Shown here: piece after piece, positions 4,118 to 50,680 of the stretch
Numbering within the stretch: position 1 is the first letter of the stretch
How the letters are laid out: the number at the start of each line of letters is the position of its first letter
Assembly: GCA_016180645.1 (NCBI GenBank)
Contig: JACPAV010000002.1
Coordinates: 174,628 to 238,627, forward strand
Direction of reading: 5' to 3'
From: Nitrospirota bacterium
GTDB taxonomy: Bacteria > JACPQY01
Length of the DNA stretch: 64,000 nucleotides
Program-made: the position numbers and the translations under genes
Notes under the pieces: model-generated
What the model saw: only the letters and a program-made list of their open reading frames with translations
Database searches by the model: none
Told to the model about the DNA's origin: nothing

Positions 4118-4624
4118 TCAGCAGGGCTCGACGGACCGCGGCTCGACTTCAACCGCCACGGATTGACCGAGCAGGTCTATCGAGACGATCAGGACGCCTT
4201 TCTTGTCGCAGTTCCTGACGAACTGACCGGCCAGACCTCTCAGAGGACCCCGCGTTACACAGACCACATCCCCCCCCCTGAGATAGGGGTGGGGCCGGGG
4301 CAGACCGTTGCCTAGAAGTTGCCTGACGGCCCCAATCTGATCTTCCGGAATCGCCTCAGGCCGAGCGGGATCGTACCCGATCAAGTCCACCACTCCATGG
4401 GTTTTCTTTGCGTCAAGCCAGTCCTCATAGCTCTCCTCGCATTGGAGAAAAACGTACCCCGGGAAAAGTGGGCGATTCGTCTCTACCTCACGGGATCGAA
4501 TCCAGCGCGAAGCCCGATAGGTGGGGAAAAAAACCTCGGGGAATCGATTCTTCAGAGCACCGGCGACTGCGGCCTCGTGATTGGAGCGTGTCCTTGCTGC
4601 GTACCATTCCATGGTCACTCGCAA
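4118..4624 (-). CDS. NusG-paralog transcription antiterminator (RfaH/UpxY/LoaP-like)
   Basis: N-terminal NGN domain (WYAARTRSNHE...FPEVFFP) and C-terminal KOW-like segment (GDVVCVTRGPLRGLAGQFV); 168 aa; sits at head of a long polysaccharide-type operon. Confidence 0.75.
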   Translation of the reverse strand: MRVTMEWYAARTRSNHEAAVAGALKNRFPEVFFPTYRASRWIRSREVETNRPLFPGYVFLQCEESYEDWLDAKKTHGVVDLIGYDPARPEAIPEDQIGAVRQLLGNGLPRPHPYLRGGDVVCVTRGPLRGLAGQFVRNCDKKGVLIVSIDLLGQSVAVEVEPRSVEPC

Positions 4625-4674: not shown

Positions 4675-4704
4675 TATTCTACCGTATATTGATCCAACGT
4701 GTCA
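4675..4704 (-). promoter_or_regulatory. sigma70-like promoter upstream of NusG-paralog: TTGACA-N18-TAGAAT
   Basis: Minus-strand reading gives TTGACACGTTGGATCAATATACGGTAGAAT in the AT-richer 170-bp gap between the KdsB-like gene and the NusG-paralog start. Confidence 0.4.
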
Positions 4705-4796
4705 AGTTGAAGGCTCCATTCCATGCCCTTTCCATCGTTCGTTAACTTAATAATAGATCGGCCTCAAATTGCAGAAAGTTTAGCCGCCGGCAGCGA

Positions 4797-9711: not shown

Positions 9712-10790
9712 GCCTCGCTTCCCTTTCGCCCATCGGATTTCCTGCCGACCACCCGCGCAAAAGAGCTCATTCGCATCTCCTGGAGGAAGGACTGAAATGC
9801 TTCTTGCACCTCGGAACCGCTCTCCAGAAGCCGGCGCTCGAAGGGAGACAGGGGAATGGCCCCATCTTCTTGTGCGTGAACACGAACCGTCTCGATATCC
9901 AGAGCGCCCGGCGTGCTGACCTCGATCAATTCAAACCCTGTGGCCCGGAGGAGCTGCTCAAGCCCCGCAAGCCCAAAGCAATTCGTCCGATCCGGCGGAT
10001 AGAGATACTTGTTGCGCAATCCCAAGACGGTCATATCGAACCCCGAGCTGACCGCCGCCGTCAGAAAGAGGAGACCACCCTCCACCAAGCGTTCGCGGAC
10101 CCCGCGGAGGAGCCGGGCCGGGTCTCGCGCCCGGTCGAGCGCCTCCAGCAGAACCGCAACCCCCGCCCGCGCGACCGTTCTCCTCCGGGTGCCTTCTTCC
10201 AATTCCCGGACCTCGCTCCCCACGGCCGTTTCGGTCAATCGTGCCTCATCCACCGTTGACACTTCGGAAAACAGCCGCGACCCCCGGAGCAGGGGGGCCA
10301 TGTCGCCCGGCGGTATCCCCACATCCAGCGCGTGAGTTCGGCCCATTCCGTGAAGCCGCAGACTGTTCCGGATCCATTCGATCTTGGGGAGATACACCTT
10401 GTCCTGCCTCGAAGCCGCCAATCCCGGGGAGAATTCCAGGTTCCTCCGTCGTCCCTCTGCGGTGCTCCTCAAGACTTCCGCCCACCGATCGGCGTTGGGA
10501 ATCTCCTGAAGGAAGAATCCTCGGCAGCGGCCGCAGCCGGCGTACGGAAGTTGCTCCACCACCCCGATCGGCGCCAGGTCCAAGTGACACGCCGGACAGG
10601 AGGTTCGGGGTGTCCCCGACACCCGCAAGGCGTTTCTCACCGTGTCGATGCAGAACGACCGGTATCCGCCCAGCCGGTCCAGCGGCTTGACGGAAGACAG
10701 GGGAACCGCAAGACCGGATTGGACCGAGAAAGGGACCGGAGACAACGATTCAGGCGTGGGAGAAGCGGAGCGATATTCTTCACCCCACAT
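9708..10790 (-). CDS. putative SAM-dependent methyltransferase with N-terminal zinc-ribbon
   Basis: CPACHLDL...GCGRC (CxxC-N17-CxxC) followed by HALDVGIPPGD motif-I-like and downstream methyltransferase-like segments; resembles sugar C-methyltransferase architecture. Family assignment tentative. Confidence 0.5.
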   Translation of the reverse strand: MWGEEYRSASPTPESLSPVPFSVQSGLAVPLSSVKPLDRLGGYRSFCIDTVRNALRVSGTPRTSCPACHLDLAPIGVVEQLPYAGCGRCRGFFLQEIPNADRWAEVLRSTAEGRRRNLEFSPGLAASRQDKVYLPKIEWIRNSLRLHGMGRTHALDVGIPPGDMAPLLRGSRLFSEVSTVDEARLTETAVGSEVRELEEGTRRRTVARAGVAVLLEALDRARDPARLLRGVRERLVEGGLLFLTAAVSSGFDMTVLGLRNKYLYPPDRTNCFGLAGLEQLLRATGFELIEVSTPGALDIETVRVHAQEDGAIPLSPFERRLLESGSEVQEAFQSFLQEMRMSSFARVVGRKSDGRKGSEA

Positions 10791-15170: not shown

Positions 15171-15264
15171 GCGGTCGGGTGTGTGGATGGGATGGGAGAC
15201 GGAAGGCGTGCTCCGCGTCCCTGGCGCACTTTGTATCTTCGCATCATCCTTGAGCTTATCCTAG

Positions 15265-15293
15265 ATTATAGTTTCAGGTTGAGAGCCTGTCAA
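15265..15293 (-). promoter_or_regulatory. consensus sigma70-type promoter for the leftward operon: TTGACA-N17-TATAAT
   Basis: Minus-strand reading gives TTGACAGGCTCTCAACCTGAAACTATAAT, about 90 nt upstream of the ATG at 15170. Confidence 0.5.
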
Positions 15294-15357
15294 GGCGCGA
15301 TCCTTGTTTCCAAGCACCCCTAAAGTCGCGGCCCCAGCGTCCGAACATCCCCCTATA

Positions 15358-15378
15358 TGTTCGTTCATCAAACGAACA
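15358..15378. promoter_or_regulatory. perfect inverted repeat TGTTCGTT-CATCA-AACGAACA between divergent promoters (candidate operator)
   Basis: 8-bp arms are exact reverse complements with a 5-bp spacer; located between the two consensus promoters. Confidence 0.4.
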
Positions 15379-15398
15379 AACTTTAGGCTCGGGCCGGC

Positions 15399-15426
15399 TT
15401 GACACCGCGACATGCATCACTATAAT
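15399..15426 (+). promoter_or_regulatory. consensus sigma70-type promoter for rightward genes: TTGACA-N16-TATAAT
   Basis: TTGACACCGCGACATGCATCACTATAAT about 24 nt upstream of the GTG start at 15450, with GAAGG/AGGGAAG as possible SD. Confidence 0.5.
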
Positions 15427-15449
15427 TTTCCCCCTGAAGGCACAGGGAA

Positions 15450-16211
15450 GTGGCGCCGCTAGGAAAGAAGTCCGTACTGGTCCTCATACCCGCCCGAGGC
15501 GGGTCCAAAGGCATTCCCCACAAAAACATCGTTGATCTTTGCGGGTACCCCCTTCTGGCCTACGCGATCGCCGCCGCGCGAAAGAGCGCTTTCAACCCGC
15601 GGATCCTCGTCACCACGGACGACGAGGAAATCGCGAGAGTCGCGAGGTCGTTCGGCGCCGATGCGCCCTTTCTTAGACCCGCCGAACTGGGCCAAGACAC
15701 AAGTCCTCTCACGGTGGCCCAACTCCACGCCCTCCATTGGCTTCGCGAGCACGAAGGCTACAGGCCGGCGGCCACCGCCACCGTGCTTCCGACGTATCCG
15801 TTCGTTCGCGCGAAGACGATCGATCAGGTGATCGGGCATGCGTTGAAAGGTATGTCGGCCCGAACGGTGATTCGCACTCCGGCATCGAGTCGCCTCTTTT
15901 TTCTCGAGGATGAAGGAGTATTGAGCCGCGTCCAATTCCGAACGCGATCCAAGCGGTGGTATCTGGGTACGGCCGCCGCGGGGGCCGTGCGGTACTTCCC
16001 CTCCTTTGATCCCGCGGCCATGAACGAGCGCGAGATCCTCCGTCTCATGAAACGATATGCGACCCGTCTCCGGAACTTGGGGATCAACACCCGAGGGCAT
16101 GCCACCATCGAGGTGACTTGGGTTGAAGCCGTGGACATCGATACGCCTCGTGAGCTGACCCTGGCCCGAAAACTGATCGCCTCGGGCGTAAGGCCTGCCC
16201 TTCTTCAATGA
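15450..16211 (+). CDS. CMP-nonulosonate cytidylyltransferase, NeuA family (second copy)
   Basis: VLIPARGGSKGIPHKNI motif; GTG start; 253 aa. Confidence 0.75.
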   Translation: MAPLGKKSVLVLIPARGGSKGIPHKNIVDLCGYPLLAYAIAAARKSAFNPRILVTTDDEEIARVARSFGADAPFLRPAELGQDTSPLTVAQLHALHWLREHEGYRPAATATVLPTYPFVRAKTIDQVIGHALKGMSARTVIRTPASSRLFFLEDEGVLSRVQFRTRSKRWYLGTAAAGAVRYFPSFDPAAMNEREILRLMKRYATRLRNLGINTRGHATIEVTWVEAVDIDTPRELTLARKLIASGVRPALLQ

Positions 16212-25152: not shown

Positions 25153-27099
25153 TCAGAGAAAGCGGCTCAGGCGGCTGAGGGCCTCCAGCGCCCGTTTCCC
25201 TTTCCACTGGTGGCCGCGCCAGATCTCGGGGACGAACCCCTCGTCGTAGTCTTTCAATTCGCCGAATACGGCTTCGAAGGGAATCTCACCCTCGCCGATT
25301 TGGACTCCCTCCCCATGCACGCCATGGGCGTCCGCCACGTGCAAGTGGCGAATGTAGGGCCTCACCGCGCGGACGAAAGAAACAATGTCCTTGCCGACGT
25401 GCTTGCAGTAGAGCTGGGCATGCGACGTATCCAAACAGATGTTGAACTTCGTTTCCGCGCAAAACGCGGCGATCTCTTCGGGATTCAGAAAAAGGTAGCC
25501 CGTCCATTGGCCCCCGAAATACCACGGAAAGGGCGGCAGGTTCTCGAGGAGGACTTCCACTCCGGTCGTGTCAAGCCGGCGGAGGGAGTCGATGAATCGG
25601 CCCGACATTCCATTCGCGCCGGGATATCCATTCAGACTCATCCCCCCCGGATGGAGGATCACTTTGGGCTTCGACCCGTGATTGAAGGAAGGACCCATCT
25701 TCCGAGCCATGTTGATCACGCGCTGAGCCACGGAAATCGAGCACTGGCGGGTGGCCATGTCTTTCGATGCCAGATCGAGAATGACGTCTCCGTCGTACTC
25801 GGGGGCATGAACGACAAGGTTCTGGGGAAATCGACCCGGGGGCGGCTCGATCTCCAAGTCGCGGTCCGTCATGTGGAATTCGAAGAGGTCGGGCTTGTAT
25901 TCGACAAACTTGTCCACGTCCGTCACCCGGACGATCAAGCCCCACTTCTTGGAGCTGACGGGGCGGGCCATCGGCGCCTCCGGCTCCCTCAGATCGTCCT
26001 CCACAAAAAGCTCACCCGCCATCATGTCCCGATGTGCGGTTCTCCCGATGAGCTGGTCGGCCAGATGGGGCGAGAGGCCTTTCCCCGGCCCCATGACGGT
26101 GATTTTGTCCTGCGTGATGACCTCGCCGATCTTGATATCGGCGGCGGCCACGAGGCTCTTGGCGAACAGCTCCCGATTGAGCTGTTCTCCCTGAGTCATT
26201 CGCTTGACGCCGGTGCCCAAGCACTCCTCCACAACGCGTATCCCATGAACCAAGCGGGCAAATTCATCTTTCTCGAGACTGACTTTGTGGTCGGGCCCCC
26301 ACGCCGTCCGATCATGCGTGAAATGTTTTTCGACAATCCGCGCGCCGCGCGCGACGGCGGCGAGTGAAACTTCGATCCCGCGGTCGTGCCCCGAGTAGCC
26401 TACGGTGACCCCGAACTTCTGGAGTTCATCCATGACTTTCAGATTCACTTCCCGGTAGAGGGCCGGATACAGGCTTACGCAATGGAGAATGGCGAATTCG
26501 GCTCTTTTCGATTTGAGGAAGTTCACCGTGCCTTCGATTTCCGGCATGAGCGACATCCCGGTGGAGAGAAGAAGCGGTTTCCCATGGGCGGACATTCTCG
26601 CCAGCAGCGGCCAATTGGTGAGATCCGCCGACGAGACCTTGAAGGCCTGCACCCCCAGTTGGGCGACAAAGTCCACGCTGGGCGGATCGAAGGCCGTGCA
26701 CAGAAGTTCGATTTCCAGCTCCCGACAGCGTTCGGCCAGCCGCGAGTAGGCTTCTTCATCCAGCTCCACCCGGCGGAGGATCGGGATCATGTACTGAAAG
26801 TGTCTCTCGTGCTGGATCACCTGCTCCAGCACGTCGGAGGTGTAAAGGGATTTCAGATCGCGCTTTTGGAACTTGACGGCATCGGCGCCTGCCGCCTTGG
26901 CGTCCTCAATCAGGCGAAGAGCAAGGTCCTCGCTCCCATTATGATTGATTCCTATTTCGGCGATGACGAAGGTTCGCTGCCCTTCGCCGATGAGCCGCCG
27001 GCCTATCCTAAGAGGATCCGGCACGCTCCGCTCCAGCCAAGGAAGGCGCGGTCCCTCACGCCATGGGGCCACGACGGCCCCGCGCCGACAGGCGCACAT
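25153..27099 (-). CDS. NeuB-family nonulosonate synthase fused to a C-terminal xylose-isomerase-like TIM-barrel domain
   Basis: N-terminal FVIAEIGINHNGS and SAF-like IKIGEVITQDKITVMGPGKG of NeuB-type synthases; C-terminal about 300 aa with LLENLP, DTSHA, HLHVAD, GEGEIPF resembling sugar-phosphate isomerase/epimerase TIM barrels; 648 aa. Confidence 0.65.
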   Translation of the reverse strand: MCACRRGAVVAPWREGPRLPWLERSVPDPLRIGRRLIGEGQRTFVIAEIGINHNGSEDLALRLIEDAKAAGADAVKFQKRDLKSLYTSDVLEQVIQHERHFQYMIPILRRVELDEEAYSRLAERCRELEIELLCTAFDPPSVDFVAQLGVQAFKVSSADLTNWPLLARMSAHGKPLLLSTGMSLMPEIEGTVNFLKSKRAEFAILHCVSLYPALYREVNLKVMDELQKFGVTVGYSGHDRGIEVSLAAVARGARIVEKHFTHDRTAWGPDHKVSLEKDEFARLVHGIRVVEECLGTGVKRMTQGEQLNRELFAKSLVAAADIKIGEVITQDKITVMGPGKGLSPHLADQLIGRTAHRDMMAGELFVEDDLREPEAPMARPVSSKKWGLIVRVTDVDKFVEYKPDLFEFHMTDRDLEIEPPPGRFPQNLVVHAPEYDGDVILDLASKDMATRQCSISVAQRVINMARKMGPSFNHGSKPKVILHPGGMSLNGYPGANGMSGRFIDSLRRLDTTGVEVLLENLPPFPWYFGGQWTGYLFLNPEEIAAFCAETKFNICLDTSHAQLYCKHVGKDIVSFVRAVRPYIRHLHVADAHGVHGEGVQIGEGEIPFEAVFGELKDYDEGFVPEIWRGHQWKGKRALEALSRLSRFL

Positions 27100-27144: not shown

Positions 27145-27759
27145 CTACAGCTGAATGACACAAATCCCTCCCTGTTCCAGCCCCTTGACCTGTTCCAGGA
27201 TCTCGTTCTTGCGCGCGAAGGAGGTGATGATCACGCCGTCCGGGCTCAGCTCCCTGATGGAATCCGGACGCGAGACCTTCCATTGCCCGAAGGATTGCCC
27301 CCATTTGCGTTCATCGTTGTCCACCACGCCAACAATCTCCACCGGAACGTTGCGAAGGGCCGCGCTGACCACTTCTCCCGTTTCCGAGGCCCCAAACAGA
27401 ACCACTCGGCGGATATGCCCGTTCAGATGTTTCTGTACCGCCCGCTGGATGGCGCCCTTGATGTACGAATAAGCCCGCACCAGCTCGACGGACGACTCCA
27501 TCAGAAAATTCATCCTGGCTTCGTTCCCCAGTGGAGTGACTTGGTACGTCATCCTCTTTCTTGAGAGTTCCTCCTTGGCAATCCACCCCTTCCGGATGCC
27601 TTCGTCGATGTAGTAATTGACTTGGGCGCTGGAGACGCCGACCAGTCCGGACAACTTGTGTTGGCTCAAGTTCGGATTCTCGCTGAGAAAATTCAGGAGA
27701 TAGAGCAACTTAAACTTGTGTGTGGGTTTCCAGCATGAGAAGCTGGAGAATTCTTTCAT
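27145..27759 (-). CDS. winged-helix transcriptional regulator with C-terminal Rossmann/CoA-binding-like domain (Rex-like architecture)
   Basis: N-terminal wHTH-like segment (LSQHKLSGLVGVSSAQVNYYI) and C-terminal RVVLFGASETGEVV...VGVVDNDERKWG. Start set to ATG (MKEFSSF) at 27759; first gene after the AT-rich gap. Confidence 0.45.
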   Translation of the reverse strand: MKEFSSFSCWKPTHKFKLLYLLNFLSENPNLSQHKLSGLVGVSSAQVNYYIDEGIRKGWIAKEELSRKRMTYQVTPLGNEARMNFLMESSVELVRAYSYIKGAIQRAVQKHLNGHIRRVVLFGASETGEVVSAALRNVPVEIVGVVDNDERKWGQSFGQWKVSRPDSIRELSPDGVIITSFARKNEILEQVKGLEQGGICVIQL

Positions 27760-27842
27760 GTCTATTCGCAATCCTTCCTTAGTTGCGGCCCTTTCGGCAC
27801 CGGGGATTATCCCCCGGATGCTATCCTTAGCAATTCCTTTGA

Positions 27843-27871
27843 GTCTATTACAACATATGGTGGTTTGTCAA
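27843..27871 (-). promoter_or_regulatory. possible promoter for the regulator gene: TTGACA with weak -10 (TAATAG)
   Basis: Minus-strand TTGACAAACCACCATATGTTGTAATAG; overlaps the 10-mer AACGAACAAA shared with the 15371 operator region. Confidence 0.25.
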
Positions 27872-28120
27872 GCGAACGAACAAAGGAACAAGCCCCCTGC
27901 CAGGTTTCGGCAGGGGGCCCAAGGATCAACACCAACCATCCACAGATTCTCTTTCAAGTTTCGTTTGTTAACTTACTGAACAATATCGGACAGAGCTGCA
28001 ATAACTTTAGGGAGAAGTGAGGACGCGATTGTTCATGAAACAATACCAATATTGTATTGAAATTAAATATATATCTAATCGATTGGCGGAGCCTCAAGGT
28101 TCCGCAATTGAACGATTTCT

Positions 28121-29983
28121 CTACGCGCGAGAGGAGCGCATGCTCTGCTGCAGTTCAAACAGGGCATGCTCAACCAGCCTTCCCATCAACGGGATGTCTC
28201 CCACAAGATTCACAAGGAATGCCTGCCCCGATTCCAGGTGCCGCGCAAGCTGCTCCGAGCCCGACGTTGATTCGCGCCAGGGCCGAAGAACCCGCCGGAC
28301 CAAGGGTTTCGCCACCGCTGAAATCAGCCTGGAGGGAGCCGCCCGATCGGCCACATCGCTGACGAAACTGCCGATCCGCAGCCTTCGTTCCTCCAAGATC
28401 GAGGCGGCGTCTCCATCCGCGGGCCGGCGCCCTATCTCCCCCCACCTCTCGAAGAGATCTCCCATCCGGGCTGAAAATGAGTGGAGTGCTGTTCTTTCTT
28501 CCACAAGGGAGTCGTACAGCCGGCACAGGCTCTCGCGATCCACGGGGGCATCCGCGAGAAAATTCCCGGAAAGATCTCCTCCATTCCAAGCGCTGTCCCG
28601 CGGCAATGCGGCGACCTCGGACCGCAATTCGTCCAGCGTCATCCGCACCGATCCTCCGGTCTCACCACCCGCCACATCACTCAACACGACTTTGAATCCC
28701 CCCCCCTGCCGGTAGCCCGCCCCCATCTCCAAAAGGAAGCGCCTATCCGCCAATCGGTCGTACGCGCTGGGATCGGAAGCATCGGCCGGGTCGAGGTCGA
28801 CCCAGAACGTGCGGTCAAACCATGCCCCGCAAAGAACCGCGGCATCCACGGGGGCGGAGAGACCGAGAGGAAGGTGGAGAGCAGTCGAATCACCCGACAC
28901 CACCCTCTCCATCCATGCGCCAAGATCATCCTGCGCGCGCGCATACACCACCGGTCGCTCAGGGGAATCTTTGAAGGCCAGGGGATCGGCGTCCAAGGGG
29001 AGCACGGCCAGCGCCGGGTCACGAGGGGAACGGGCATCCGCCCCGAAGCGCAAGCGCGGTTGGATTCCCGATGCCGTGCCGGACGTCGCCGTCCCCTCCG
29101 CTCCGCTCCACGGACGGCGAAATGAATTTTCATAGGGTCCTGTCGCCGCGACCACGGTTCGCGCTTCGATCGCTCCCATCAGATCCGCCGGAAGACGACC
29201 GGCGCAGCCGCTGTTCAACACCACCGCGTTCAGCCAGACCTGCCGATCGGGCCGGGGCTGGACCCCGCGGCCTTTCCACAGCCACGGCAGATTCTCGAGC
29301 GAGCGGAGCAGGATCCGACGGGATTCGGTTGCCGGGATTTCCACCTGTCGCCTGAACAGGGACAACCGGCAAGCCGCTCTGCCTTGGATTCTCGCCACCC
29401 TGTCGGTGAACGATTTTGCATAGCCGGGAAGAATCAACCACGAGACCCGGAGGCCGATCCGAAGTGAAGCGTCCATCGCCTTGTTGAAGTGGGGTTCATC
29501 GTGAACGAGTACCAACCGATCTGGCACAAAGAGGCTTCCGTAGTCAATCCGGCCCATGAGGTCGGCCAGCAGGGCTCGGTCCGGCTCATACAGGATGACC
29601 TTCGCGGAGGTCCGGTCCAGAAGTTCGCGCACGTGGTAGCCCAAGCCAAGACCCACCACGAGGACCAACTCCGCACCGGTATCCACCGCCGTCTGGACAA
29701 GTCCCTTGGCCTCGAGCACAGGATGGAAGGGGCTGTGGAGGAATTCGCTCTTGTACTTGAGCGTCGGCGGTCCGGCGCGGGAGGGCAGGATGTCAACCGC
29801 CCCGACTTCACCATCGCCAAGCTCCGGGATCGAACCTCGGACAACTCGGCGGAACGCTTCGGAGTTGCTCGCCCAGCGGAGCCGGCGACGCGGGGATCCG
29901 GTCGCCGTTCCGTTGACCGTCTCCGGCGCGGAGCCGCCGGGGAGGCGTTCAGCGAGCGGCAGGTTGCCGGCCGAGCGGCTCAT
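28121..29983 (-). CDS. Maf-like (motility-associated-factor / DUF115 type) putative nonulosonate transferase, paralog 2
   Basis: ELVLVVGLGLGYHVREL aligns with VDVVVMMGVGLGYDLKE of the adjacent paralog. Start uncertain: track start 30052 overlaps the upstream gene; ATG at about 29983 chosen. Confidence 0.4.
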   Translation of the reverse strand: MSRSAGNLPLAERLPGGSAPETVNGTATGSPRRRLRWASNSEAFRRVVRGSIPELGDGEVGAVDILPSRAGPPTLKYKSEFLHSPFHPVLEAKGLVQTAVDTGAELVLVVGLGLGYHVRELLDRTSAKVILYEPDRALLADLMGRIDYGSLFVPDRLVLVHDEPHFNKAMDASLRIGLRVSWLILPGYAKSFTDRVARIQGRAACRLSLFRRQVEIPATESRRILLRSLENLPWLWKGRGVQPRPDRQVWLNAVVLNSGCAGRLPADLMGAIEARTVVAATGPYENSFRRPWSGAEGTATSGTASGIQPRLRFGADARSPRDPALAVLPLDADPLAFKDSPERPVVYARAQDDLGAWMERVVSGDSTALHLPLGLSAPVDAAVLCGAWFDRTFWVDLDPADASDPSAYDRLADRRFLLEMGAGYRQGGGFKVVLSDVAGGETGGSVRMTLDELRSEVAALPRDSAWNGGDLSGNFLADAPVDRESLCRLYDSLVEERTALHSFSARMGDLFERWGEIGRRPADGDAASILEERRLRIGSFVSDVADRAAPSRLISAVAKPLVRRVLRPWRESTSGSEQLARHLESGQAFLVNLVGDIPLMGRLVEHALFELQQSMRSSRA

Positions 29984-31817
29984 TTTCCAGCGGGGTGTCC
30001 TCAATATCGGAAAGCGCCTCCTCGATTCGGGGCGCCAGGATCTCGCAGCCATCCACAGCCTGGGAGACCCACTCCTCCAGTCGTTTGAGCGTATCCTCGT
30101 AATGAACCGTCCGCCCTCCGGCGCATCCCCTGACGCACCACTCGGCCACCAGAGATTCTCCCATGACGTGGTAGTTGAGTAGGAAGCTGGACGAAACGTA
30201 GTCGGAGATGTCGTCCAAGAGCGCCTCCACGAGGGCCTGCTCGCCGAACATCCCCGCCAATCGATGAATCGTGGTCTCGCCGCTCCGGTACCGCTGGACG
30301 CGTTCCATCTGTTCTTCCAGCAGCGGCCTGAGTTCCCGCACCCGAAACGCTTCGGCGCGCAACAGCTCCCTCAGCGCTCTCAGCTTGTCTCCATGCAACA
30401 GCGGCGACATCGTCCGACGGAAAAAGGATTTGTCCACCTTCCGCCCGAGATATCGGGGAGCGGCCTCTTCGAGCGGAACGTGCTGGAACCCCTCAATCCA
30501 GACGCCGTCGCCGGTGGCGTTGACAAGTGTAATGCCCCGGGCCGACGTCCGGGCGGCCAATTCGAACCAGTTGACCGTTTTCTCGAACTGCCTCCACGTG
30601 AGCACTTCGCCGCCCTTGTATCCCTTCACGGTGGTGAACTGGGGATCATCCTTCAGCGCCTTCGGGGGGGGCAAGGCATGCTCTCTCGAAACGCCCCGGG
30701 CGTGGGTCCGCCCGCCGGGAAAGGAGAGATCCTGCCCGGCCATGAGAATCCGATCGCATCCGAGCCGCATGGCAAAGCTGAAAGCCGTGGTGGACACGGA
30801 ATAGGCATGCGGCAACACGGCGTTGAATCCCGTCAGGTTGAAAAGCGGACGCTCGAAGGGGCTGGAGGATTCGACGTACAACCAGATCCGCGTGAGCGGG
30901 AGGTCGAACAACTTGGGGCACACCTTGAGGGGGAAGATCGCGGAAAGGGTTTCCGGAAGGTCCACCTCATCGAAGAAATCCGTCACATCGATCGCCTCAT
31001 CGCTGAAGACAAAGTCCGGGACCACTCCAGACCGTAGGAGGGGTTTGAGAGACGCATCCGTGGCCAGGAGGATCGCGCGTTCCTGCACCTCCTTCAAAAG
31101 CGGCAGATGACCGGCGAGGGACGGTCCCGCACCGATGATGATGGCCGGCAACCCCATCCCGCTCCCCTCCAATGCGGCCGCCATCGGGTATTCGACGACC
31201 CGATGGAGATTCAGGAGGTTGGTCCCCACCCATTCCCGTGCGCGGTTCTTCCAAATGCCGAGGCACATCCTCGAATTCTCGATGTCCACCGTGAAATTGG
31301 CGACAAGTTCCCGCACCTGCTCGGGGAAGAGGATCTCGTGCGCGGCGCCCACGAAAATTCTTCCCTCCAGCCCCAGCCGGAACCAGACGCGGAACGCCAG
31401 GGCCAATTCCTCCGATTTGCGGGTCAGGAACACGCGGTCCTGACGGAAGAGGTCCGAAAAGTCGTGGATCATCAGCGCGACTTTCAACAGGGGGAGTTCC
31501 GGTTCGAGAATGAGCAGGTCCTTTCCGGTCTCCCTCGATGCCTCCTTCAAATCGTAGCCGAGGCCGACTCCCATCATGACCACAACATCCACTCCCTCGC
31601 TCCTGAAGGCCATCCAGCGGGCCCGGGCCTCGGCCCCCGGATGTTCACGGCTGTGGAGAAGCACTCCCTTCCACGAGAGCGTCCACTGCCCGTTCGCGCT
31701 CTCCTCCAGGAGATGCAGCGGTGCTTCAGCTTCCTCAAGCTCCGCGGCCAGCTCCGGAAAGCGGGGCCGGAGGGCCGCCAGGTTCTTGTGAAGGCGCTCG
31801 AGGCTGGGCTTAAGCAT
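29949..31817 (-). CDS. Maf-like (motility-associated-factor / DUF115 type) putative nonulosonate transferase, paralog 1
   Basis: LPAIIIGAGPSLAGHL (GxGPSL) motif characteristic of Maf/MptE-like glycosyltransferases. Start set to ATG (MLKPSLERL) at 31817. Confidence 0.55.
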   Translation of the reverse strand: MLKPSLERLHKNLAALRPRFPELAAELEEAEAPLHLLEESANGQWTLSWKGVLLHSREHPGAEARARWMAFRSEGVDVVVMMGVGLGYDLKEASRETGKDLLILEPELPLLKVALMIHDFSDLFRQDRVFLTRKSEELALAFRVWFRLGLEGRIFVGAAHEILFPEQVRELVANFTVDIENSRMCLGIWKNRAREWVGTNLLNLHRVVEYPMAAALEGSGMGLPAIIIGAGPSLAGHLPLLKEVQERAILLATDASLKPLLRSGVVPDFVFSDEAIDVTDFFDEVDLPETLSAIFPLKVCPKLFDLPLTRIWLYVESSSPFERPLFNLTGFNAVLPHAYSVSTTAFSFAMRLGCDRILMAGQDLSFPGGRTHARGVSREHALPPPKALKDDPQFTTVKGYKGGEVLTWRQFEKTVNWFELAARTSARGITLVNATGDGVWIEGFQHVPLEEAAPRYLGRKVDKSFFRRTMSPLLHGDKLRALRELLRAEAFRVRELRPLLEEQMERVQRYRSGETTIHRLAGMFGEQALVEALLDDISDYVSSSFLLNYHVMGESLVAEWCVRGCAGGRTVHYEDTLKRLEEWVSQAVDGCEILAPRIEEALSDIEDTPLENEPLGRQPAAR

Positions 31818-32877: not shown

Positions 32878-34190
32878 CAGACCGGAGCGCGGAGTTTGTC
32901 CCCGAGGATGAACGAGGCCATTTGGAAACACTCAAGCTGCTCCGGGGAGACGGGCGGTCCGGACATCAGGTCCGTGACGACGGCCTGGTAGTAGGCCTCC
33001 GCCCGCCCCGGGTCCTGTCCCGAGAGGAGCAAGGCCAGAATCCAGGCCGCGATCGGGCGATCACCGGGCTGCCCCATCGCTTCCGTGAGATGTTGAATGG
33101 CCGCGGCGGGCTGCCGCTTCAAGATTGAAAGGAGCGCCAGGTAGGGAGACACACCTGCCTTGCCGCCGGCCTGCGCGGCCTTCGTCAGCAGTCCGGCCGC
33201 CAGATCCATGCGCTCTGCGAAAACGGGCGAGTCCGGGTAGACCAGCATGAGGCAGGTTTTTCCCAGAAGAGAGTATTCCCGCGCGGACCAGACACGAGGC
33301 ACATGATCGAGGAGGGCGCGTTGCAGCACCTCCGCCGCCTCCCGCGCGCGGTGATCAGACGTGTGCCGCTCCATGACCTTGCGCCGGCCGGCCTCCGCGA
33401 TGGCCGCCCGGTCCGTCTCATGTTCGAGGTAGTAGCGGATGAGCTCCGCTACCTGGTCCGCATCACCGTGACGGTAAATCACTAGATCCCGGCCTGGCTC
33501 GAACAGGTCCGCTTGGCCGTTCTCCAATTCTTCGGCGAGCAGCATTCCTCCGCATGCCATCGCCTCGAAGGTCCGCTGATTCAAGTCTCGATTGACCGAT
33601 TCGTTCAGGATGATCTTCGATCGATTGTAGGTCTCCGCATAGGCTCCGCTGTCGACCACGAATCGAATGCTGCCGTTCAACCGGACTTTGAGCCGATCGA
33701 GGAAAGCAACCCGATGGGGATGGATCCGCGGATCCAGCTTTCCCACGAAGCAGGCGTCGATGTCGCGCGGGAGGCCAAGATCCTTGTCGGTGCCTGCCGA
33801 GCAGGCCAGTGGAAGCCAGGAGGCCGATACCGCGCCCCATTGCCTGAACGGTTCCACGTAGTCCTTCTGGGCCACGAACAGCACATCGAAAAGCGGGGCA
33901 TAGTTCCTCTGCCACGCGAAATTGAGATGGGAATCCACCGCGTAGTACGCTTTCAATTGCGGAACGCGGTCCATGTCCCGCCATAGATGCTTGACGCCCC
34001 TCTCAATGAACAGGAGGACCTCCGGCTCGAAGAAATCCTTCCGACAGCGGGCGACCACCGTTTCCAATGAAGGATGGAGCTCGTTGCAGATAATTTGGAA
34101 CCGATCCTCCCATCGGCCGCAGGTCACCACCTCATGCTCCCGGCGCAGTTCATCCACGAGAGCGGGATTGTCCAGGACCAGAATCTTCAA
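32877..34190 (-). CDS. CgeB-family glycosyltransferase-like protein
   Basis: NQRTFEAMACGGMLL segment typical of CgeB-type proteins; TTG start preceded by GGGGAGG SD per my reading; 437 aa. Confidence 0.55.
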   Translation of the reverse strand: MKILVLDNPALVDELRREHEVVTCGRWEDRFQIICNELHPSLETVVARCRKDFFEPEVLLFIERGVKHLWRDMDRVPQLKAYYAVDSHLNFAWQRNYAPLFDVLFVAQKDYVEPFRQWGAVSASWLPLACSAGTDKDLGLPRDIDACFVGKLDPRIHPHRVAFLDRLKVRLNGSIRFVVDSGAYAETYNRSKIILNESVNRDLNQRTFEAMACGGMLLAEELENGQADLFEPGRDLVIYRHGDADQVAELIRYYLEHETDRAAIAEAGRRKVMERHTSDHRAREAAEVLQRALLDHVPRVWSAREYSLLGKTCLMLVYPDSPVFAERMDLAAGLLTKAAQAGGKAGVSPYLALLSILKRQPAAAIQHLTEAMGQPGDRPIAAWILALLLSGQDPGRAEAYYQAVVTDLMSGPPVSPEQLECFQMASFILGDKLRAPV

Positions 34191-48290: not shown

Positions 48291-48393
48291 CCGCTCTTCC
48301 CCTTTCGCGAGGTTACGCCCCTCGTAGGCAACGAACGCACCTCTCCGTCAGGCGATATGCGCCCAATGGTTGATGATGGCGGTTGGACGGAGG

Positions 48394-48861
48394 CTACTTG
48401 CCGGCGGCAGCCGCCAAAGGAACGGGATCGATCATCACATCTGAGTGCCCGTTTCCCGTGGCCGGTTCCGGCTCGCGAATCATGTCCGCCACCCGGCGGG
48501 CGACGGCGGCGGCGATCCGGTCCACCAACGACTCGGGCAGTCCCGTCGTATCCACATGACCGTTGCCGTTCCCGTTGGACTTGCCGTTGGAGTGGCCGTT
48601 CCCGTTCATCCCGGCTGCGACTTCTTGCGAAGCTTCCACCGTGAGAGTATCGAGGAACCGCTTCGCGCCCTGAATGCTGTAGCCGTCTTCCTTGAGCAGC
48701 TTCTTGATCAGGGCCACGCGCGAAACATCCTCATCCGAGTAGAACCGGTGTTTCCCCTGGGAACGGGAGGGGGCGAGCAGCTCGCCGAACTCCTTCTCCC
48801 AGTACCTCAGCGTGTGGGAGAGAACTCCCGTGCGCTGGCTTACTTCTTTGATTCTGTACAT
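48394..48861 (-). CDS. MerR-family transcriptional regulator (HspR-like) with C-terminal Asn-Gly repeat
   Basis: MYRIKEVSQRTGVLSHTLRYWEKEFG HTH; strong AAGGAGG SD upstream; C-terminal NGNGHSNGKSNGNGNGH low-complexity region. Confidence 0.7.
   Translation of the reverse strand: MYRIKEVSQRTGVLSHTLRYWEKEFGELLAPSRSQGKHRFYSDEDVSRVALIKKLLKEDGYSIQGAKRFLDTLTVEASQEVAAGMNGNGHSNGKSNGNGNGHVDTTGLPESLVDRIAAAVARRVADMIREPEPATGNGHSDVMIDPVPLAAAAGK
48560..48607. repeat. hexanucleotide tandem repeat (CCGTTG/CCGTTC units) encoding the Asn-Gly repeat
   Basis: About eight 6-nt units read directly; in frame, so copy-number change would alter repeat length without frameshift. Confidence 0.6.
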
Positions 48862-49371: not shown

Positions 49372-49803
49372 ATGTTGGTACGATGGATCCCCGCTGCGGA
49401 GGGGTCGGATTTGAATCGGGCGATGGACCGATTTTTCGGCCGCCCCTTGTTCAACCTCTTTGACGGCGCGGACACCGAATTGCCGCGAGCGGACGTTTCG
49501 GAAACCGAGGACGCGTATCAGTTTGAGATCGACGTTCCGGGATTGGACAAGAACGACCTCAAAGTGGAGTTGAAGGAGAGCGTCCTCACCGTCTCCGGCG
49601 AGTACAAAGAGGAGAAGGACGAAAAGAACAAGGCCTATCTGTCGCGCGAGCGGCTGCTGGGTCGATTCGCCCGGTCCTTCGTGGTCCCCGGCGATATTGA
49701 CGACAAGAAACTGAAGGCCGAATTCAAATCCGGCATTCTCCGCATCCTTCTCCCCAAGACGGAACGTGCGCGGAGCCGCGAAATCCCAATCCAGGTATCG
49801 TAG
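49372..49803 (+). CDS. Hsp20/alpha-crystallin family small heat-shock protein
   Basis: YQFEIDVPGLDKNDLKVELKESVLTVSGE and GILRILLPK are alpha-crystallin-domain signatures; AAGGAG SD 7 nt upstream; 143 aa. Confidence 0.85.
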   Translation: MLVRWIPAAEGSDLNRAMDRFFGRPLFNLFDGADTELPRADVSETEDAYQFEIDVPGLDKNDLKVELKESVLTVSGEYKEEKDEKNKAYLSRERLLGRFARSFVVPGDIDDKKLKAEFKSGILRILLPKTERARSREIPIQVS

Positions 49804-50039: not shown

Positions 50040-50351
50040 TCAGGCGGCTACCGCCTCCGACCGGCTCAGCACCCGTGCCCGCCGCCAGGATCTCGATTCT
50101 CGGCAGGCGTGCCAGAGATCGTAATTGCGCTGTAGGTTGAGCCAGAGCTCCGGCGAGGTGCCGAAGGCCCTGGACAGGCGCAATGCCATGTCCGTGGTCA
50201 CGGGCGCGTGCTCATTAATGATCTTGGAAAGCGTCTTGCGCGAAACCCCCAATGCCGAGGCGGCCCCGGAGACCGTCAAGGAAAGAGGCTCGAGATAATC
50301 TCTCTTGAGGATCCCACCGGGGTGCGTGGGCGGTCGCTTTCTCGGAATCAT
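50040..50351 (-). CDS. higA: HigA-type antitoxin (XRE-family HTH)
   Basis: LSLTVSGAASALGVSRKTLSKIINEHAPVTTDMALRLSRAFGTSPELWLNLQ is a typical HigA HTH; 103 aa; directly downstream of the toxin gene. Confidence 0.75.
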   Translation of the reverse strand: MIPRKRPPTHPGGILKRDYLEPLSLTVSGAASALGVSRKTLSKIINEHAPVTTDMALRLSRAFGTSPELWLNLQRNYDLWHACRESRSWRRARVLSRSEAVAA

Positions 50352-50366
50352 GGGGTCTCGCTCAGT

Positions 50367-50645
50367 TCAGTGGTAGTCGACATAGTCCACCTCGGAGGCG
50401 CCGCCGTCCTCCCAGCGGAAGGTGACGCGCCAGTTGCCGGAAACTTTCAGCGACCAATGCCCCTTCAAGTCACCCTTCAACGGGTGGAGATTGGAGCCGG
50501 GGTAATCCATGTCCTGGGGCCTCACGGCGGCGTTGAGCCGGTCCAGGATGTCCGCCAGCTTGCCCGCGTGAGCGGGTTGGATGCCCTTTTTCGATCCATC
50601 ATAGAAGAATGTTTCCAAGCCCTTGTGCCGGAAGCTCTTGATCAA
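50367..50645 (-). CDS. higB: HigB-type toxin (RelE/ParE superfamily)
   Basis: MIKSFRHKGLETFFYDGSKKGI...LKGDLKGHWSLKVSGNWRVTF matches HigB killer proteins; TTG start per my reading; 92 aa. Confidence 0.75.
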   Translation of the reverse strand: MIKSFRHKGLETFFYDGSKKGIQPAHAGKLADILDRLNAAVRPQDMDYPGSNLHPLKGDLKGHWSLKVSGNWRVTFRWEDGGASEVDYVDYH

Positions 50646-50651
50646 TGTCCA

Positions 50652-50680
50652 CAGTGTAACCTATAGGGTTACGTTGTCAA
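50652..50680 (-). promoter_or_regulatory. candidate higBA promoter (TTGACA-N16-TACACT) with operator palindrome GTAACC-TATAG-GGTTAC
   Basis: Read directly, immediately upstream of higB; palindrome overlaps the spacer and -10. Confidence 0.35.

What the first reader, a model, noticed from the sequence alone, without database searches (positions are those of the whole stretch)
27772..28120. AT-rich intergenic hub sharing a 10-mer with the divergent-promoter operator
The exact 10-mer AACGAACAAA occurs at about 27875-27884 and at about 15371-15380, both in AT-rich control regions of the island. A given 10-mer is expected far less than once by chance in 64 kb. The hub also contains a TTGACA element, the related TTTCGTTTGTTAAC at about 27961, and a CAATATTG-centred near-palindrome. 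It lies upstream of a regulator with a Rex-like architecture (wHTH plus Rossmann/CoA-binding-like domain), a candidate for the binding protein, possibly linking glycan gene expression to a nucleotide cofactor.
Basis: partly seen in the sequence, partly recalled or inferred. Interest (0 to 1): 0.45.

Follow-up and report, generated by a model that had tools for sequence, protein, structure and literature searches.

The report
Flagellar-type promoter, operator sites and terminator
The AT-rich gap is an ordinary but well-organised control region between two sugar-biosynthesis operons of an uncultured Nitrospirae bacterium, and the shared 10-mer is only a chance-level fragment of a real, conserved regulatory motif.

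Summary
The statistical argument fails: 42 of the hub's ~340 10-mers recur elsewhere in the window, and the exact 10-mer is absent from the orthologous loci.

All flanking genes lie on the minus strand. Read on that strand and compared with relatives (regulator 66-68% identical), the hub contains:
- a lineage-specific AT-rich spacer;
- a conserved sigma-28 (FliA)-type promoter, TAAAGTTA-N11-TCCGATAT;
- a conserved 17-bp near-palindrome, TGTTCAGTAAGTTAACA, at the predicted start site;
- an invariant 15-mer, TTGGTGTTGATCCTT;
- a 13-14-bp GC hairpin whose stem sequence differs between relatives;

Beyond these lies the gene for a winged-helix plus Rossmann protein, followed by neuB.

The same layout (sigma-28-type promoter, TGTTCA/AACRAAC element, consensus sigma-70 promoter) recurs at 15321-15426 and at 4782-4676. 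It is also conserved upstream of a NusG-paralogue orthologue. So the link between the two regions is real, but it rests on this architecture and not on the 10-mer.

The regulator's predicted fold is Rex-like, but it is not a Rex family member and no Rex operator is present. Whether it binds these sites is untested.

The parts
28010..28120 (-). Lineage-specific AT-rich spacer (GC 0.378) after the stop codon of the Maf-like gene. It contains the CAATAC-CAATATT-GTATTG near-palindrome and ATTAAATATATATCTAAT.
   Evidence: It is absent from L001, where the stop codon lies 17 nt from the TAAAGT motif, and is replaced by a GC-rich hairpin in L002. Function unknown; possibly UP-element-like.
27983..28009 (-). 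P1, a sigma-28 (FliA)-type promoter: TAAAGTTA (28009-28002), an 11-nt spacer, then TCCGATAT (27990-27983). The predicted start site is about 27975.
   Evidence: Both elements and their spacing are conserved in L001 and L002 while the spacer sequence differs completely. The TAAAG-N14-nCCGATAn spacing equals that of the P. aeruginosa fliC promoter (PMC12784957).
27962..27982 (-). Element c1: the near-palindrome TGTTCAGTAAGTTAACA (27982-27966), which overlaps the AAC box AAGTTAACAAACG (27974-27962). It spans about -7 to +13 of P1.
   Evidence: One mismatch to TGTTCA-N5-TGAACA. Conserved in L001 (10/12) and L002 (11/12). Related sites occur at 15362-15378, 4748-4736 and L018 986-1002.
27921..27935 (-). 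Invariant 15-mer TTGGTGTTGATCCTT, immediately 5' of the hairpin.
   Evidence: Identical at 15 of 15 positions in the window, L001 and L002, although the linker before it is 26, 10 and 22 nt long. Function unknown. No coding frame is conserved, because the linker lengths differ by non-multiples of 3.
27889..27921 (-). GC-rich hairpin (core arms 27892-27901 and 27909-27918), terminator-like on the minus strand.
   Evidence: I3. A 12-14-bp GC stem is present at the same place in L001 and L002 with a different stem sequence. The T-rich tail exists only in the window.
27875..27884 (+). It reads TTTGTTCGTT on the coding strand and forms part of the hairpin's T-rich tail and of element c2.
   Evidence: Not conserved in L001 or L002 and absent from all fetched loci.
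27866..27882 (-). Element c2: TGTTCGTTCGCTTGACA, a weaker second copy of c1 (9/12 to the palindrome; 15 of 21 nt identical to c1, 100 nt away). Its right half is the TTGACA of P2.
   Evidence: D1. L001 also has a second copy, CGTTCACAAACTTAACG, 79 nt after its first. No clear copy exists in L002.
27842..27871 (-). P2, a sigma-70-type promoter: TTGACA-N18-TAGACT (10/12).
   Evidence: It is one of only five matches of 10/12 or better in 64 kb, all intergenic. TTGACG plus a TGTGATAGA-type -10 region is conserved in L002.
27772..27841 (-). 5' untranslated region of the regulator gene. It contains a small hairpin (27800-27817) and the ribosome-binding site AAGGAAGGA (27780-27772).
   Evidence: The hairpin is not conserved in L001 or L002.
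27145..27759 (-). Gene for a 204-aa winged-helix (HTH_24/MarR-like) plus Rossmann-like (C2185-like_N / Methyltransf_14 C-terminal / PglD_N-like) protein. neuB follows directly at 25153-27099.
   Evidence: The pairing with neuB holds in six lineages.
28121..30052 (-). Upstream Maf-like glycosyltransferase gene, the last gene of the preceding minus-strand operon. Its transcripts would end in the hub.
   Evidence: The same gene order is found in L001.
15321..15426 (+). Second copy of the module. It comprises TAAAGTCG-N11-TCCGAACA (15321-15347), the inverted repeat TGTTCGTT-N5-AACGAACA (15358-15378, including the palindrome match at 15362-15378 and the other copy of the 10-mer), and TTGACA-N16-TATAAT (15399-15426). 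It lies ahead of a CMP-sugar synthetase-like gene (15450-16211).
   Evidence: A divergent 12/12 promoter lies at 15293-15265 on the minus strand.
4676..4782 (-). Third copy of the module. It comprises TAAACTTT-N12-GCCGATCT (4782-4755), the AAC box AAGTTAACGAACG (4748-4736) and TTGACA-N18-TAGAAT (4705-4676). It lies ahead of a NusG/UpxY-like gene (4118-4612).
   Evidence: All three elements, and the 49-nt distance between the -10 element and TTGACA, are conserved in the orthologue L018.

Best explanation
The hub is the boundary and control region between two long minus-strand operons of a nonulosonic-acid / Maf-type glycosylation island, probably for flagellin, in a Nitrospirae MAG.

Read on the coding strand, I propose it works as follows:
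1. Transcripts of the upstream Maf operon run into a GC-rich hairpin (27921-27889). In this genome the hairpin has a T-rich tail and acts as an intrinsic terminator. (Inferred.)
2. About 60 nt before the hairpin, a FliA/sigma-28-type promoter P1 (28009-27983) starts transcription near 27975. Its product is either a ~90-100-nt RNA that ends at the hairpin or, by read-through, a long leader for the regulator-neuB operon. This would tie nonulosonic-acid synthesis to late flagellar gene expression. (Inferred from motif, spacing and conservation.)
3. Directly after the hairpin, a sigma-70-type promoter P2 (27871-27842) gives housekeeping expression of the regulator gene, neuB and about 10 kb of downstream genes. 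(Inferred.)
4. Two copies of a ~17-20-bp element close to TGTTCA-N5-TGAACA, whose right side is AAC(G/A)AAC, sit on the P1 start site (c1) and on the P2 -35 hexamer (c2). These are positions from which a dimeric winged-helix repressor would block both promoters. (Inferred.)
5. The most likely binder is the winged-helix plus Rossmann protein encoded immediately downstream. It would autoregulate and feed back on neuB in response to a nucleotide-type ligand. (The least certain step.)

The same module heads two other operons of the island, at 4782-4676 and 15321-15426.

It is the overlap of a GTTCGTT / AACGAAC half-site-like sequence in c2 with one arm of the 15358-15378 inverted repeat.
For: Gene map and strand.

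Sigma-28-type promoter:
- The motif matches at the hub, at 4782 and at 15321.
- The -35 and -10 elements and their spacing are conserved while the spacer sequences diverge, in L001, L002 and L018.
- Consensus and geometry follow PMC12784957.

Hairpin:
- Found by the terminator scan and by folding.
- A stem is present in all three lineages with a different sequence.

Sigma-70-type promoters:
-.
- Only five matches of 10/12 or better exist in 64 kb. All are intergenic, and four lie in the three module regions.

Motif enrichment and palindrome:
-.
- The hub profile also hits the L018 promoter plus box (E = 0.0016).

Regulator:
- Winged helix plus Rossmann model with pLDDT 85.5.
- Rex-family chains are the top whole-length fold matches.
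- The gene sits directly upstream of neuB in six lineages.
- A match at 10 of the 12 half-site bases lies upstream of the 39%-identical homologue in L005. A conserved TATTCA-N5-TGAATG site is shared by L005 and L017.
Against: - There are no transcript data, so no start site or 3' end has been observed.
- No fliA gene or flagellar structural gene lies in the window.
- In L001 and L002 the hairpin has no U-rich tail, so its terminator function is uncertain there.
- The motif statistics are post hoc. The palindrome with up to 2 mismatches is only weakly enriched window-wide: 3 matches against 0.94 expected, with 5 of 100 shuffles reaching 3.
- The site at 4748 matches the left half-site poorly, and c2 is missing from L002.
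- c2 is inverted in the window but direct in L001.
- Only three independent lineages of the hub exist, and collection scans found no others.
- The island also encodes a MerR protein and a NusG paralogue that could read the motif instead.
- The invariant 15-mer is left unexplained by this model.
Confidence: 0.55

Rival explanations
1. The conserved core of the hub is a gene for a FliA-dependent small RNA of about 90-105 nt. It would comprise P1, the conserved 5' end AAGUUAACAAACG, a variable linker, the invariant UUGGUGUUGAUCCUU and a terminator hairpin. It would act in trans on mRNAs, for example flagellin or glycosylation transcripts. The AAC box would be conserved as RNA, not as an operator. 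This can coexist with the best explanation.
For: - The anatomy is promoter, conserved blocks, variable linker and a hairpin with a varying stem, in three lineages.
- The element persists in L002 although the upstream gene there is divergent.
- The sequences fold better than shuffles, z = -2.5 to -3.8.
- There is precedent: sigma-28-dependent UTR-derived sRNAs in E. coli (PMC10578931).
Against: - No Rfam match.
- No U-tail in L001 or L002.
- No translation-start region in the window pairs with the invariant block better than background: best -18.4 kcal/mol against a 5% background level of -19.5.
- The 4782 and 15321 modules carry the same box without the 15-mer or a strong hairpin. The box is therefore not specific to this RNA.
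- The helix proposed between the box and the 15-mer is not compensated in L001 or L002.
Confidence: 0.25
2. One reading: the 10-mer AACGAACAAA is the operator of a Rex-like NAD(H)- or CoA-sensing repressor that couples glycan gene expression to redox or cofactor state.
For: - The 10-mer lies in two promoter regions.
- The regulator has the Rex architecture by fold, with weak Rex and NeuD/PglD_N matches in its C-terminal domain.
Against: - The 10-mer is not significant and not conserved.
- The Rex family models are failed by a wide margin.
- There is no ROP-type site.
- The glycine loop is GASETG, not GxGxxG.
- The C-terminal domain resembles sugar-nucleotide enzyme domains (3nkl, KijD1, Methyltransf_14 C-terminal, PglD_N) at least as much as it resembles Rex. 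The invariable neuB neighbour also points to a sugar-nucleotide ligand and away from a redox one.
Confidence: 0.1
3. The AAC box is an ops-like loading or pause site for the island's own NusG paralogue (4118-4612). RNA polymerase starting at P1 would be made termination-resistant and read through the hub hairpin and the long operons. Polymerase that is not modified would stop at the hairpin.
For: - A NusG/UpxY-like gene heads one of the three modules.
- In every P1-linked copy the box lies in the transcribed leader and in the same orientation with respect to transcription.
- A terminator-like hairpin follows the box in the hub.
- The window has no canonical ops element in any leader, so a different signal would be needed.
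Against: - The box starts at about +1, too close to the promoter for a normal ops-type pause.
- The box lies upstream of the strong P2 promoters, so most transcripts would lack it.
- More distant paralogues (42-46% identical) have no such box, and one carries a canonical GGCGGTAGCCTG instead.
- The palindromic character and the second, inverted copy at the P2 -35 fit a DNA operator better.
Confidence: 0.1
4. Nothing specific: the hub is a spacer holding a terminator and one promoter, and the shared short motifs are AT-rich coincidences.
For: - Shared 10-mers are common.
- The heptamer AACGAAC is not over-represented in the window as a whole: 9 copies against an estimated ~8 expected by chance for a 7-mer in 128 kb (count).
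- The AT-rich half of the hub is not conserved.
Against: - 27 of 28 nt and 15 of 15 nt blocks are conserved between genomes whose regulator proteins are only 66-68% identical.
- The composite motif is restricted to operon heads.
- The module is conserved at a second, unlinked locus in L018.
Confidence: 0.05

Closest known systems
Sigma-28 (FliA / SigD) class III flagellar promoters, including tandem sigma-28 plus sigma-70 arrangements
   Same: A TAAAG-type -35 and a (G/T)CCGATAT-type -10 with the same 14-nt gap as P. aeruginosa fliC (PMC12784957). The location is a Maf/nonulosonic-acid island, the kind of locus linked to flagellin modification (own knowledge).
   Different: FliA dependence is not shown, and no flagellar gene lies in the window. 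Each P1 is followed at 50-110 nt by a near-consensus sigma-70 promoter and carries a conserved TGTTCA/AAC element on its start site. That element is not part of the sigma-28 consensus.
Rex redox-sensing repressors (B. subtilis Rex 2vt2, T. aquaticus T-Rex 1xcb, RSP 3wg9)
   Same: An N-terminal winged helix plus a C-terminal Rossmann-type domain in about 205 residues. These are the top whole-length fold matches. The candidate operators are palindromic and lie at promoters.
   Different: TM-scores are only 0.32-0.37 and sequence identity 11-16%. The protein fails the Rex HMMs and the Pfam CoA_binding and Put_DNA-bind_N models. The loop is GASETG. No TTGTGAA-N4-TTCACAA site is present. The gene is always paired with neuB, which suggests a sugar-nucleotide ligand and not NADH.
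MarR-family / EPS-associated wHTH regulators (TIGR04176) with autoregulatory palindromic operators
   Same: The N-terminal domain matches HTH_24, MarR_2 and MarR_EPS. A candidate 17-bp palindrome overlaps the protein's own promoter region.
   Different: The score is below the TIGR04176 cut-off (35 against 88 bits). The protein carries an extra Rossmann-like domain in place of the MarR dimerisation helices. Binding is untested.
Sigma-28-dependent UTR-derived small RNAs of E. coli (UhpU, MotR, FliX, FlgO; PMC10578931)
   Same: A sigma-28-type promoter is followed about 90-100 nt later by a terminator-like hairpin, at the 3' end of one operon and the 5' end of the next.
   Different: There is no sequence or Rfam relationship. 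No target has been identified. The 3' U-tract is missing in two of the three lineages. The RNA has not been observed.
RfaH/UpxY-type operon-specific antitermination (ops / JUMPstart leaders)
   Same: A NusG paralogue is the first gene of a polysaccharide-type operon, and a short conserved element lies in the leaders of the island's operons.
   Different: No GGCGGTAGnnTG element is present in any leader. The conserved element sits at +1 and upstream of the main promoter. It is palindromic.

Membership tests
Sigma-28 (FliA)-dependent promoter | -35 TAAA(G) and -10 GCCGATAA-like elements with about 14-15 nt between TAAAG and the -10 octamer | tested here: met
   Hub: TAAAGTTA-N11-TCCGATAT. 4782: TAAACTTT-N12-GCCGATCT. 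15321: TAAAGTCG-N11-TCCGAACA, a weaker -10. Geometry as in PMC12784957.
Sigma-28 (FliA)-dependent promoter | Elements conserved in orthologous regions while the spacer diverges | tested here: met
   L001, L002 and L018.
Sigma-28 (FliA)-dependent promoter | Transcription depends on FliA, and a fliA gene is present in the genome | not testable with these tools
   Only 64 kb of the MAG is available. No fliA or flagellar gene lies in the window.
Intrinsic (Rho-independent) terminator | GC-rich stem-loop followed directly by a U-rich tract | tested here: inconclusive
   In the window, a 14-pair stem is followed by TTCCTTTGTT. L001 and L002 have equally strong stems but no U-tract.
Rex redox-sensing repressor | Winged helix plus Rossmann-fold architecture | tested here: met
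   AF2 model with pLDDT 85.5. Rex chains are the top whole-length Foldseek hits, E = 6e-6 and TM 0.32-0.37.
Rex redox-sensing repressor | Sequence membership (NCBIfam PRK05472 models; Pfam Put_DNA-bind_N plus CoA_binding) | tested here: not met
   12.5-15.1 bits against cut-offs of 126-217. No Pfam Rex domains at E <= 1.
Rex redox-sensing repressor | GxGxxG dinucleotide-binding loop | tested here: not met
   The invariant loop in seven homologues is F-G-A-S-E-T-G-E.
Rex redox-sensing repressor | Rex operator TTGTGAA-N4-TTCACAA in target promoters (consensus from own knowledge) | tested here: not met
   With up to 3 mismatches there are only two matches, both in coding DNA and at chance level.
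Autoregulated wHTH (MarR-like) repressor with palindromic operator | Palindromic site overlapping the regulator's own promoter, conserved with the regulator | tested here: met
   TGTTCA-N5-TGAACA matches at 11/12 (window), 10/12 (L001), 11/12 (L002) and 10/12 (L005). Background P(>=10/12) is about 0.01 per 300 nt.
Autoregulated wHTH (MarR-like) repressor with palindromic operator | The protein binds the site | not testable with these tools
   Requires EMSA, DAP-seq or a reporter assay.
Known RNA families (Rfam 15) | Covariance-model match | tested here: not met
   Only four hits at E = 3-9, to miRNA, snoRNA, lncRNA and frameshift-element models, all far below gathering scores.
RfaH/UpxY ops-dependent antitermination | ops element GGCGGTAGnnTG in the operon leader | tested here: not met
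   Three one-mismatch matches against 3.5 expected, none in a leader. A distant paralogue locus, L019, does carry GGCGGTAGCCTG.

The most novel reading that the evidence does not exclude
The winged-helix plus Rossmann protein is always encoded directly upstream of neuB. It belongs to an uncharacterised family of at least 100 clusters at 50% identity. The novel reading is that it is a structural analogue of Rex that senses a sugar nucleotide, for example a CMP- or UDP-activated nonulosonic-acid pathway intermediate. It would bind T(G/A)TTCA-N5-TGAA(C/T)A operators placed on the start sites of FliA-type promoters and on the -35 of sigma-70 promoters. That would give feedback control of nonulosonic-acid synthesis, gated by flagellar assembly. 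In the same reading, the hub also encodes a FliA-dependent ~100-nt RNA.
Probability: 0.2. Interest if true: 0.6.

Novelty: new member of a known kind. Interest (0 to 1): 0.38.

Why it matters
Little is known about how bacteria regulate nonulosonic-acid (pseudaminic, legionaminic or sialic-like) synthesis for flagellin or surface glycosylation outside a few pathogens, and nothing is known for Nitrospirota. This region gives three concrete things to test:
- a candidate operator;
- a candidate regulator family that is invariably paired with neuB;
- a candidate link to the flagellar sigma factor.

For the genome scan the lesson is methodological. The flagged 10-mer was not significant, and reading the wrong strand hid the actual organisation.

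Tried and rejected
- **Collection scans.** I scanned genome and metagenome collections with GTTCAGTAA-N12-42-TTGGTGTTGATCC. The eight hits were all chance matches inside coding DNA, with no promoter or hairpin. The hub element is therefore known from only three lineages.
- **Orthologues of the 15450 gene.** I searched for orthologues of the CMP-sugar synthetase-like gene to test conservation of the 15358-15378 inverted repeat. No close orthologue exists; the best is 61% identical over half the length.
- **Rfam.** Nothing was found at permissive thresholds.
- **Small ORF in the conserved core.** Window and L001 could encode M(V/I)GVDP, but L002 has no start codon in that frame and the linker lengths differ by non-multiples of 3. 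Rejected.
- **Sigma-54 promoter in the invariant 15-mer.** The GG/GC spacing does not fit. Rejected by inspection.
- **sRNA target search.** I tested the invariant block against 57 translation-start regions. Nothing scored beyond background.
- **Other module leaders.** Hairpins or structure in the 4782, L018 and 15352 leaders are not significant, z = -0.2 to -1.2.
- **Distant NusG paralogues.** The box and P1 are absent upstream of L019 and L023.
- **Known operator and loading sites.** There is no canonical ops element in the window's leaders and no Rex operator.
- **Sequence search of the PDB with the regulator.** Only weak wHTH hits were returned.
Full report
**Observation**

The exact 10-mer AACGAACAAA occurs twice in the window, at 15371-15380 and 27875-27884.
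- TTGACA, on the minus strand, at 27871-27866;
- TTTCGTTTGTTAAC at 27959;
- CAATATTG at 28047.

The hub is AT-rich, with GC 0.444 against 0.613 for the window. The 15171-15449 region is only mildly so, at 0.545.

The chance argument does not hold. Of the hub's ~340 10-mers, 42 recur somewhere in the window, against 28 +/- 7 for shuffled hubs. One shared 10-mer picked after the fact therefore carries no weight. It is also absent from all 25 related loci fetched.

**Context**

All genes around the hub are on the minus strand:
- a Maf-like gene at 28121-30052;
- the hub;
- a 204-aa winged-helix plus Rossmann-like protein at 27145-27759;
- a NeuB / xylose-isomerase-like-TIM fusion at 25153-27099.

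The window is a nonulosonic-acid / Maf-type glycosylation island from a Nitrospirae MAG.

**Comparative anatomy of the hub**

The regulator has close homologues in two other lineages: L001 at 68% identity with the same Maf-Maf-regulator-neuB order, and L002-L004 at 66%. Aligning the three upstream regions shows a conserved core flanked by unconserved DNA. In window minus-strand order the core is:

1. TAAAGTTA-N11-TCCGATAT (28009-27983). Both octamers and their spacing are kept in L001 (TAAAGTCC-N11-GCCGATTA) and L002 (TAAAGTAT-N11-GCCGATAT), while the 11-nt spacers are unrelated. This matches the sigma-28/FliA consensus. It has the same TAAAG-N14-GCCGATAA geometry as the P. aeruginosa fliC promoter, whose -10 spans -15 to -8 (PMC12784957). 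The predicted start site is about 27975.
2. TGTTCAGTAAGTTAACAAACG (27982-27962), nearly identical in all three lineages.
3. A linker of 26, 10 or 22 nt.
4. TTGGTGTTGATCCTT (27935-27921), identical in all three.
5. A 12-14-bp GC-rich hairpin (27921-27889) whose stem sequence differs between lineages.
6. A tail, T-rich only in the window, that contains the 10-mer.
7. TTGACA-N18-TAGACT (27871-27842, 10/12), with TTGACG conserved in L002.

The AT-rich stretch 28010-28120, with the CAATATTG near-palindrome, is absent from L001 and different in L002. Rfam has no match. The linker lengths rule out a conserved small ORF.

**The same module elsewhere**

A scan for the sigma-28 pattern found two more intergenic sites on the coding strand, at 4782-4755 and 49013-48986. 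A relaxed pattern added 15321-15347.

The site at 4782 reads TAAACTTT-N12-GCCGATCT, then AAGTTAACGAACG six nucleotides later, then TTGACA-N18-TAGAAT (11/12). It lies ahead of a NusG/UpxY-like gene. Its orthologue L018, 61% identical, keeps every element and the 49-nt distance between the -10 element and TTGACA: TAAACTTT-N11-TCCGATTG, AGGTGAACAAACG, TTGACA-N18-TAGCAT. The hub profile detects that region at E = 0.0016.

At 15321 the order is:
- TAAAGTCG-N11-TCCGAACA;
- the perfect inverted repeat TGTTCGTT-N5-AACGAACA, which carries the other copy of the 10-mer;
- TTGACA-N16-TATAAT (12/12).

A second 12/12 promoter faces the other way at 15293-15265.

Only five sigma-70 matches of 10/12 or better exist in the 64 kb. 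All are intergenic, and four lie in these three regions.

The composite pattern (P1 followed by AACRAAC) occurs only at the hub and at 15321 in the window. It occurs only at the expected places in L001-L004 and L018, and never in 200 Markov simulations. AAC[GA]AAC[GA] is found 6 times in 3.7 kb of intergenic DNA, against 0.30 expected and 0 of 3,000 shuffles. That pattern was defined post hoc.

Its basis is a shared promoter and operator architecture, not the 10-mer.

**Nature of the shared element**

The hub holds two copies, 100 nt apart and 15 of 21 nt identical (D1). Copy c1 is on the P1 start site. Copy c2 overlaps the -35 of P2 and contains the 10-mer. L001 also has two copies, 79 nt apart.

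The instances fit a 6-5-6 near-palindrome, TGTTCA-N5-TGAACA:

| Site | Match (of 12) |
|---|---|
| Hub c1 | 11 |
| L002 | 11 |
| L018 | 11 |
| L001 | 10 |
| 15362-15378 | 10 |
| Hub c2 | 9 |
| 4748 | poor |

A score of 10/12 or better is expected in about 1% of 300-nt segments.

As an independent test I looked upstream of the 39%-identical regulator homologue in L005. It has a 10/12 site. L005 and L017 also share an identical 41-nt block containing TATTCA-TGGAG-TGAATG, which has the same geometry with a mirrored base change.

Window-wide enrichment of the palindrome is weak: 3 matches against 0.94 expected. I treat this as suggestive evidence for a dimeric DNA-binding protein, not as proof.

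**The regulator**

- Pfam and NCBIfam give HTH_24, MarR_2 and MarR_EPS in the N-terminal part. The C-terminal part matches Methyltransf_14 C-terminal domain, PglD_N and NeuD weakly, with only marginal Rex hits.
- The AF2 model (pLDDT 85.5) finds Rex-family repressors as the best whole-length PDB matches: E = 6e-6, TM 0.32-0.37, identity 11-16%. The C-terminal domain alone matches the N-terminal domain of a UDP-sugar dehydrogenase, 3nkl.
- 'Rex-like architecture' is therefore correct, but family membership fails on the HMM scores, on the GASETG loop and on the absence of a Rex operator.
- The family is uncharacterised but not tiny: 102 clusters at 50% identity at E <= 1e-30, with only generic names.
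- The gene lies directly upstream of a neuB-family gene, often overlapping it, in all six lineages examined. This points to a sugar-nucleotide ligand and away from a redox one. (Inference.)

**Mechanism proposed**

The hub ends the upstream Maf operon at the hairpin. It starts the regulator-neuB operon from two promoters: a FliA-type P1 and a sigma-70-type P2. Palindromic operator-like sites sit on the P1 start site and on the P2 -35 hexamer. The product of the downstream gene is the most economical candidate repressor.

P1 transcripts either stop at the hairpin, giving a ~100-nt RNA, or read through as a long leader.

What is shown:
- the sequence motifs;
- their conservation;
- their recurrence;
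- the predicted fold of the protein.

What is inferred:
- all promoter activities;
- termination at the hairpin;
- which protein binds the sites;
- the ligand.

The invariant 15-mer remains unexplained by the operator model. It is the main argument for an RNA-level function.

**Rivals**

- A trans-acting FliA-dependent sRNA. The anatomy fits and there is precedent (PMC10578931). Against it, there is no target, no U-tail in two lineages, and the box is shared by modules that lack the RNA.
- An ops-like site for the island's NusG paralogue. The orientation is consistent and no canonical ops is present. Against it, the box sits at +1 and upstream of P2, it is palindromic, and it is absent from more distant paralogues.
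- The literal Rex / 10-mer reading, and pure coincidence. Both are disfavoured for the reasons given above.

**Verdict**

This is an ordinary kind of feature: an inter-operon control region with a terminator, tandem promoters and operator-like sites. It is cleanly conserved, and it carries a testable hypothesis about an uncharacterised regulator family that is paired with neuB. I class it as a new member of known kinds, of moderate interest.

Noticed in passing
window 27145-27759 with 25153-27099; L001 6304-8820; L002 662-3181; L005 10001-11852; L017 245-1524: The wHTH plus Rossmann gene lies immediately upstream of a NeuB-family gene, often overlapping it, in all six lineages examined. The family has 102 clusters at 50% identity at E <= 1e-30 and carries only generic names, for example Desulfovibrio subterraneus WP_174404259.1.
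   Followed up: partly
window 25153-27099 (-): NeuB is fused to a C-terminal xylose-isomerase-like TIM-barrel domain (AP_endonuc_2). The same fusion follows the regulator in L001, L002 and the P0004 contig.
   Followed up: no
window 49013-48986 (-): A further sigma-28-like motif, TAAAGTGT-N12-TCCGATAG, lies upstream of a MerR-family gene (48394-48861). That gene heads the PseB-like-to-Maf operon. This motif has no AAC box.
   Followed up: partly
window 48330-48337: An isolated AACGAACG (CGTTCGTT on the coding strand) lies about 30 nt upstream of the PseB-like gene start (48290), in the short gap after the MerR gene.
   Followed up: no
window 50040-50680 (-): A HigB/HigA-like toxin-antitoxin pair (50367-50645 and 50040-50351) has its own TTGACA-N16-TACACT promoter (50680-50653). 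An Hsp20-like gene lies at 49372-49803 (+). These interrupt the glycosylation island.
   Followed up: no
L019 ~2835-2846: A distant NusG paralogue (46% identical) has a near-canonical RfaH ops element, GGCGGTAGCCTG, in its leader. The window's paralogue has none.
   Followed up: partly
L005 ~9885-9925 and L017 ~125-165: An identical 41-nt block, GTCGATTTTGATATTCATGGAGTGAATGAACGCTTGAGTTC, lies upstream of two distant regulator homologues. It contains overlapping palindromes, ATTCA-N5-TGAAT and TGAAC-N6-GTTC.
   Followed up: partly
window 28099-28112 and 33952-33965: The 14-mer GTTCCGCAATTGAA, just after the Maf-like stop codon, recurs as its reverse complement inside a glycosyltransferase gene. 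About 0.2 such matches are expected by chance.
   Followed up: no
window 28079-28098 (-): A small hairpin, GCGGAACC-TTGA-GGCTCCGC, lies directly after the Maf-like stop codon and is followed by AT-rich sequence. It could be an additional terminator for the upstream operon.
   Followed up: no
window 29949-30052: The two Maf-like ORFs overlap by about 100 nt if the longest ORFs are taken. The true start of the downstream gene is probably later.
   Followed up: no
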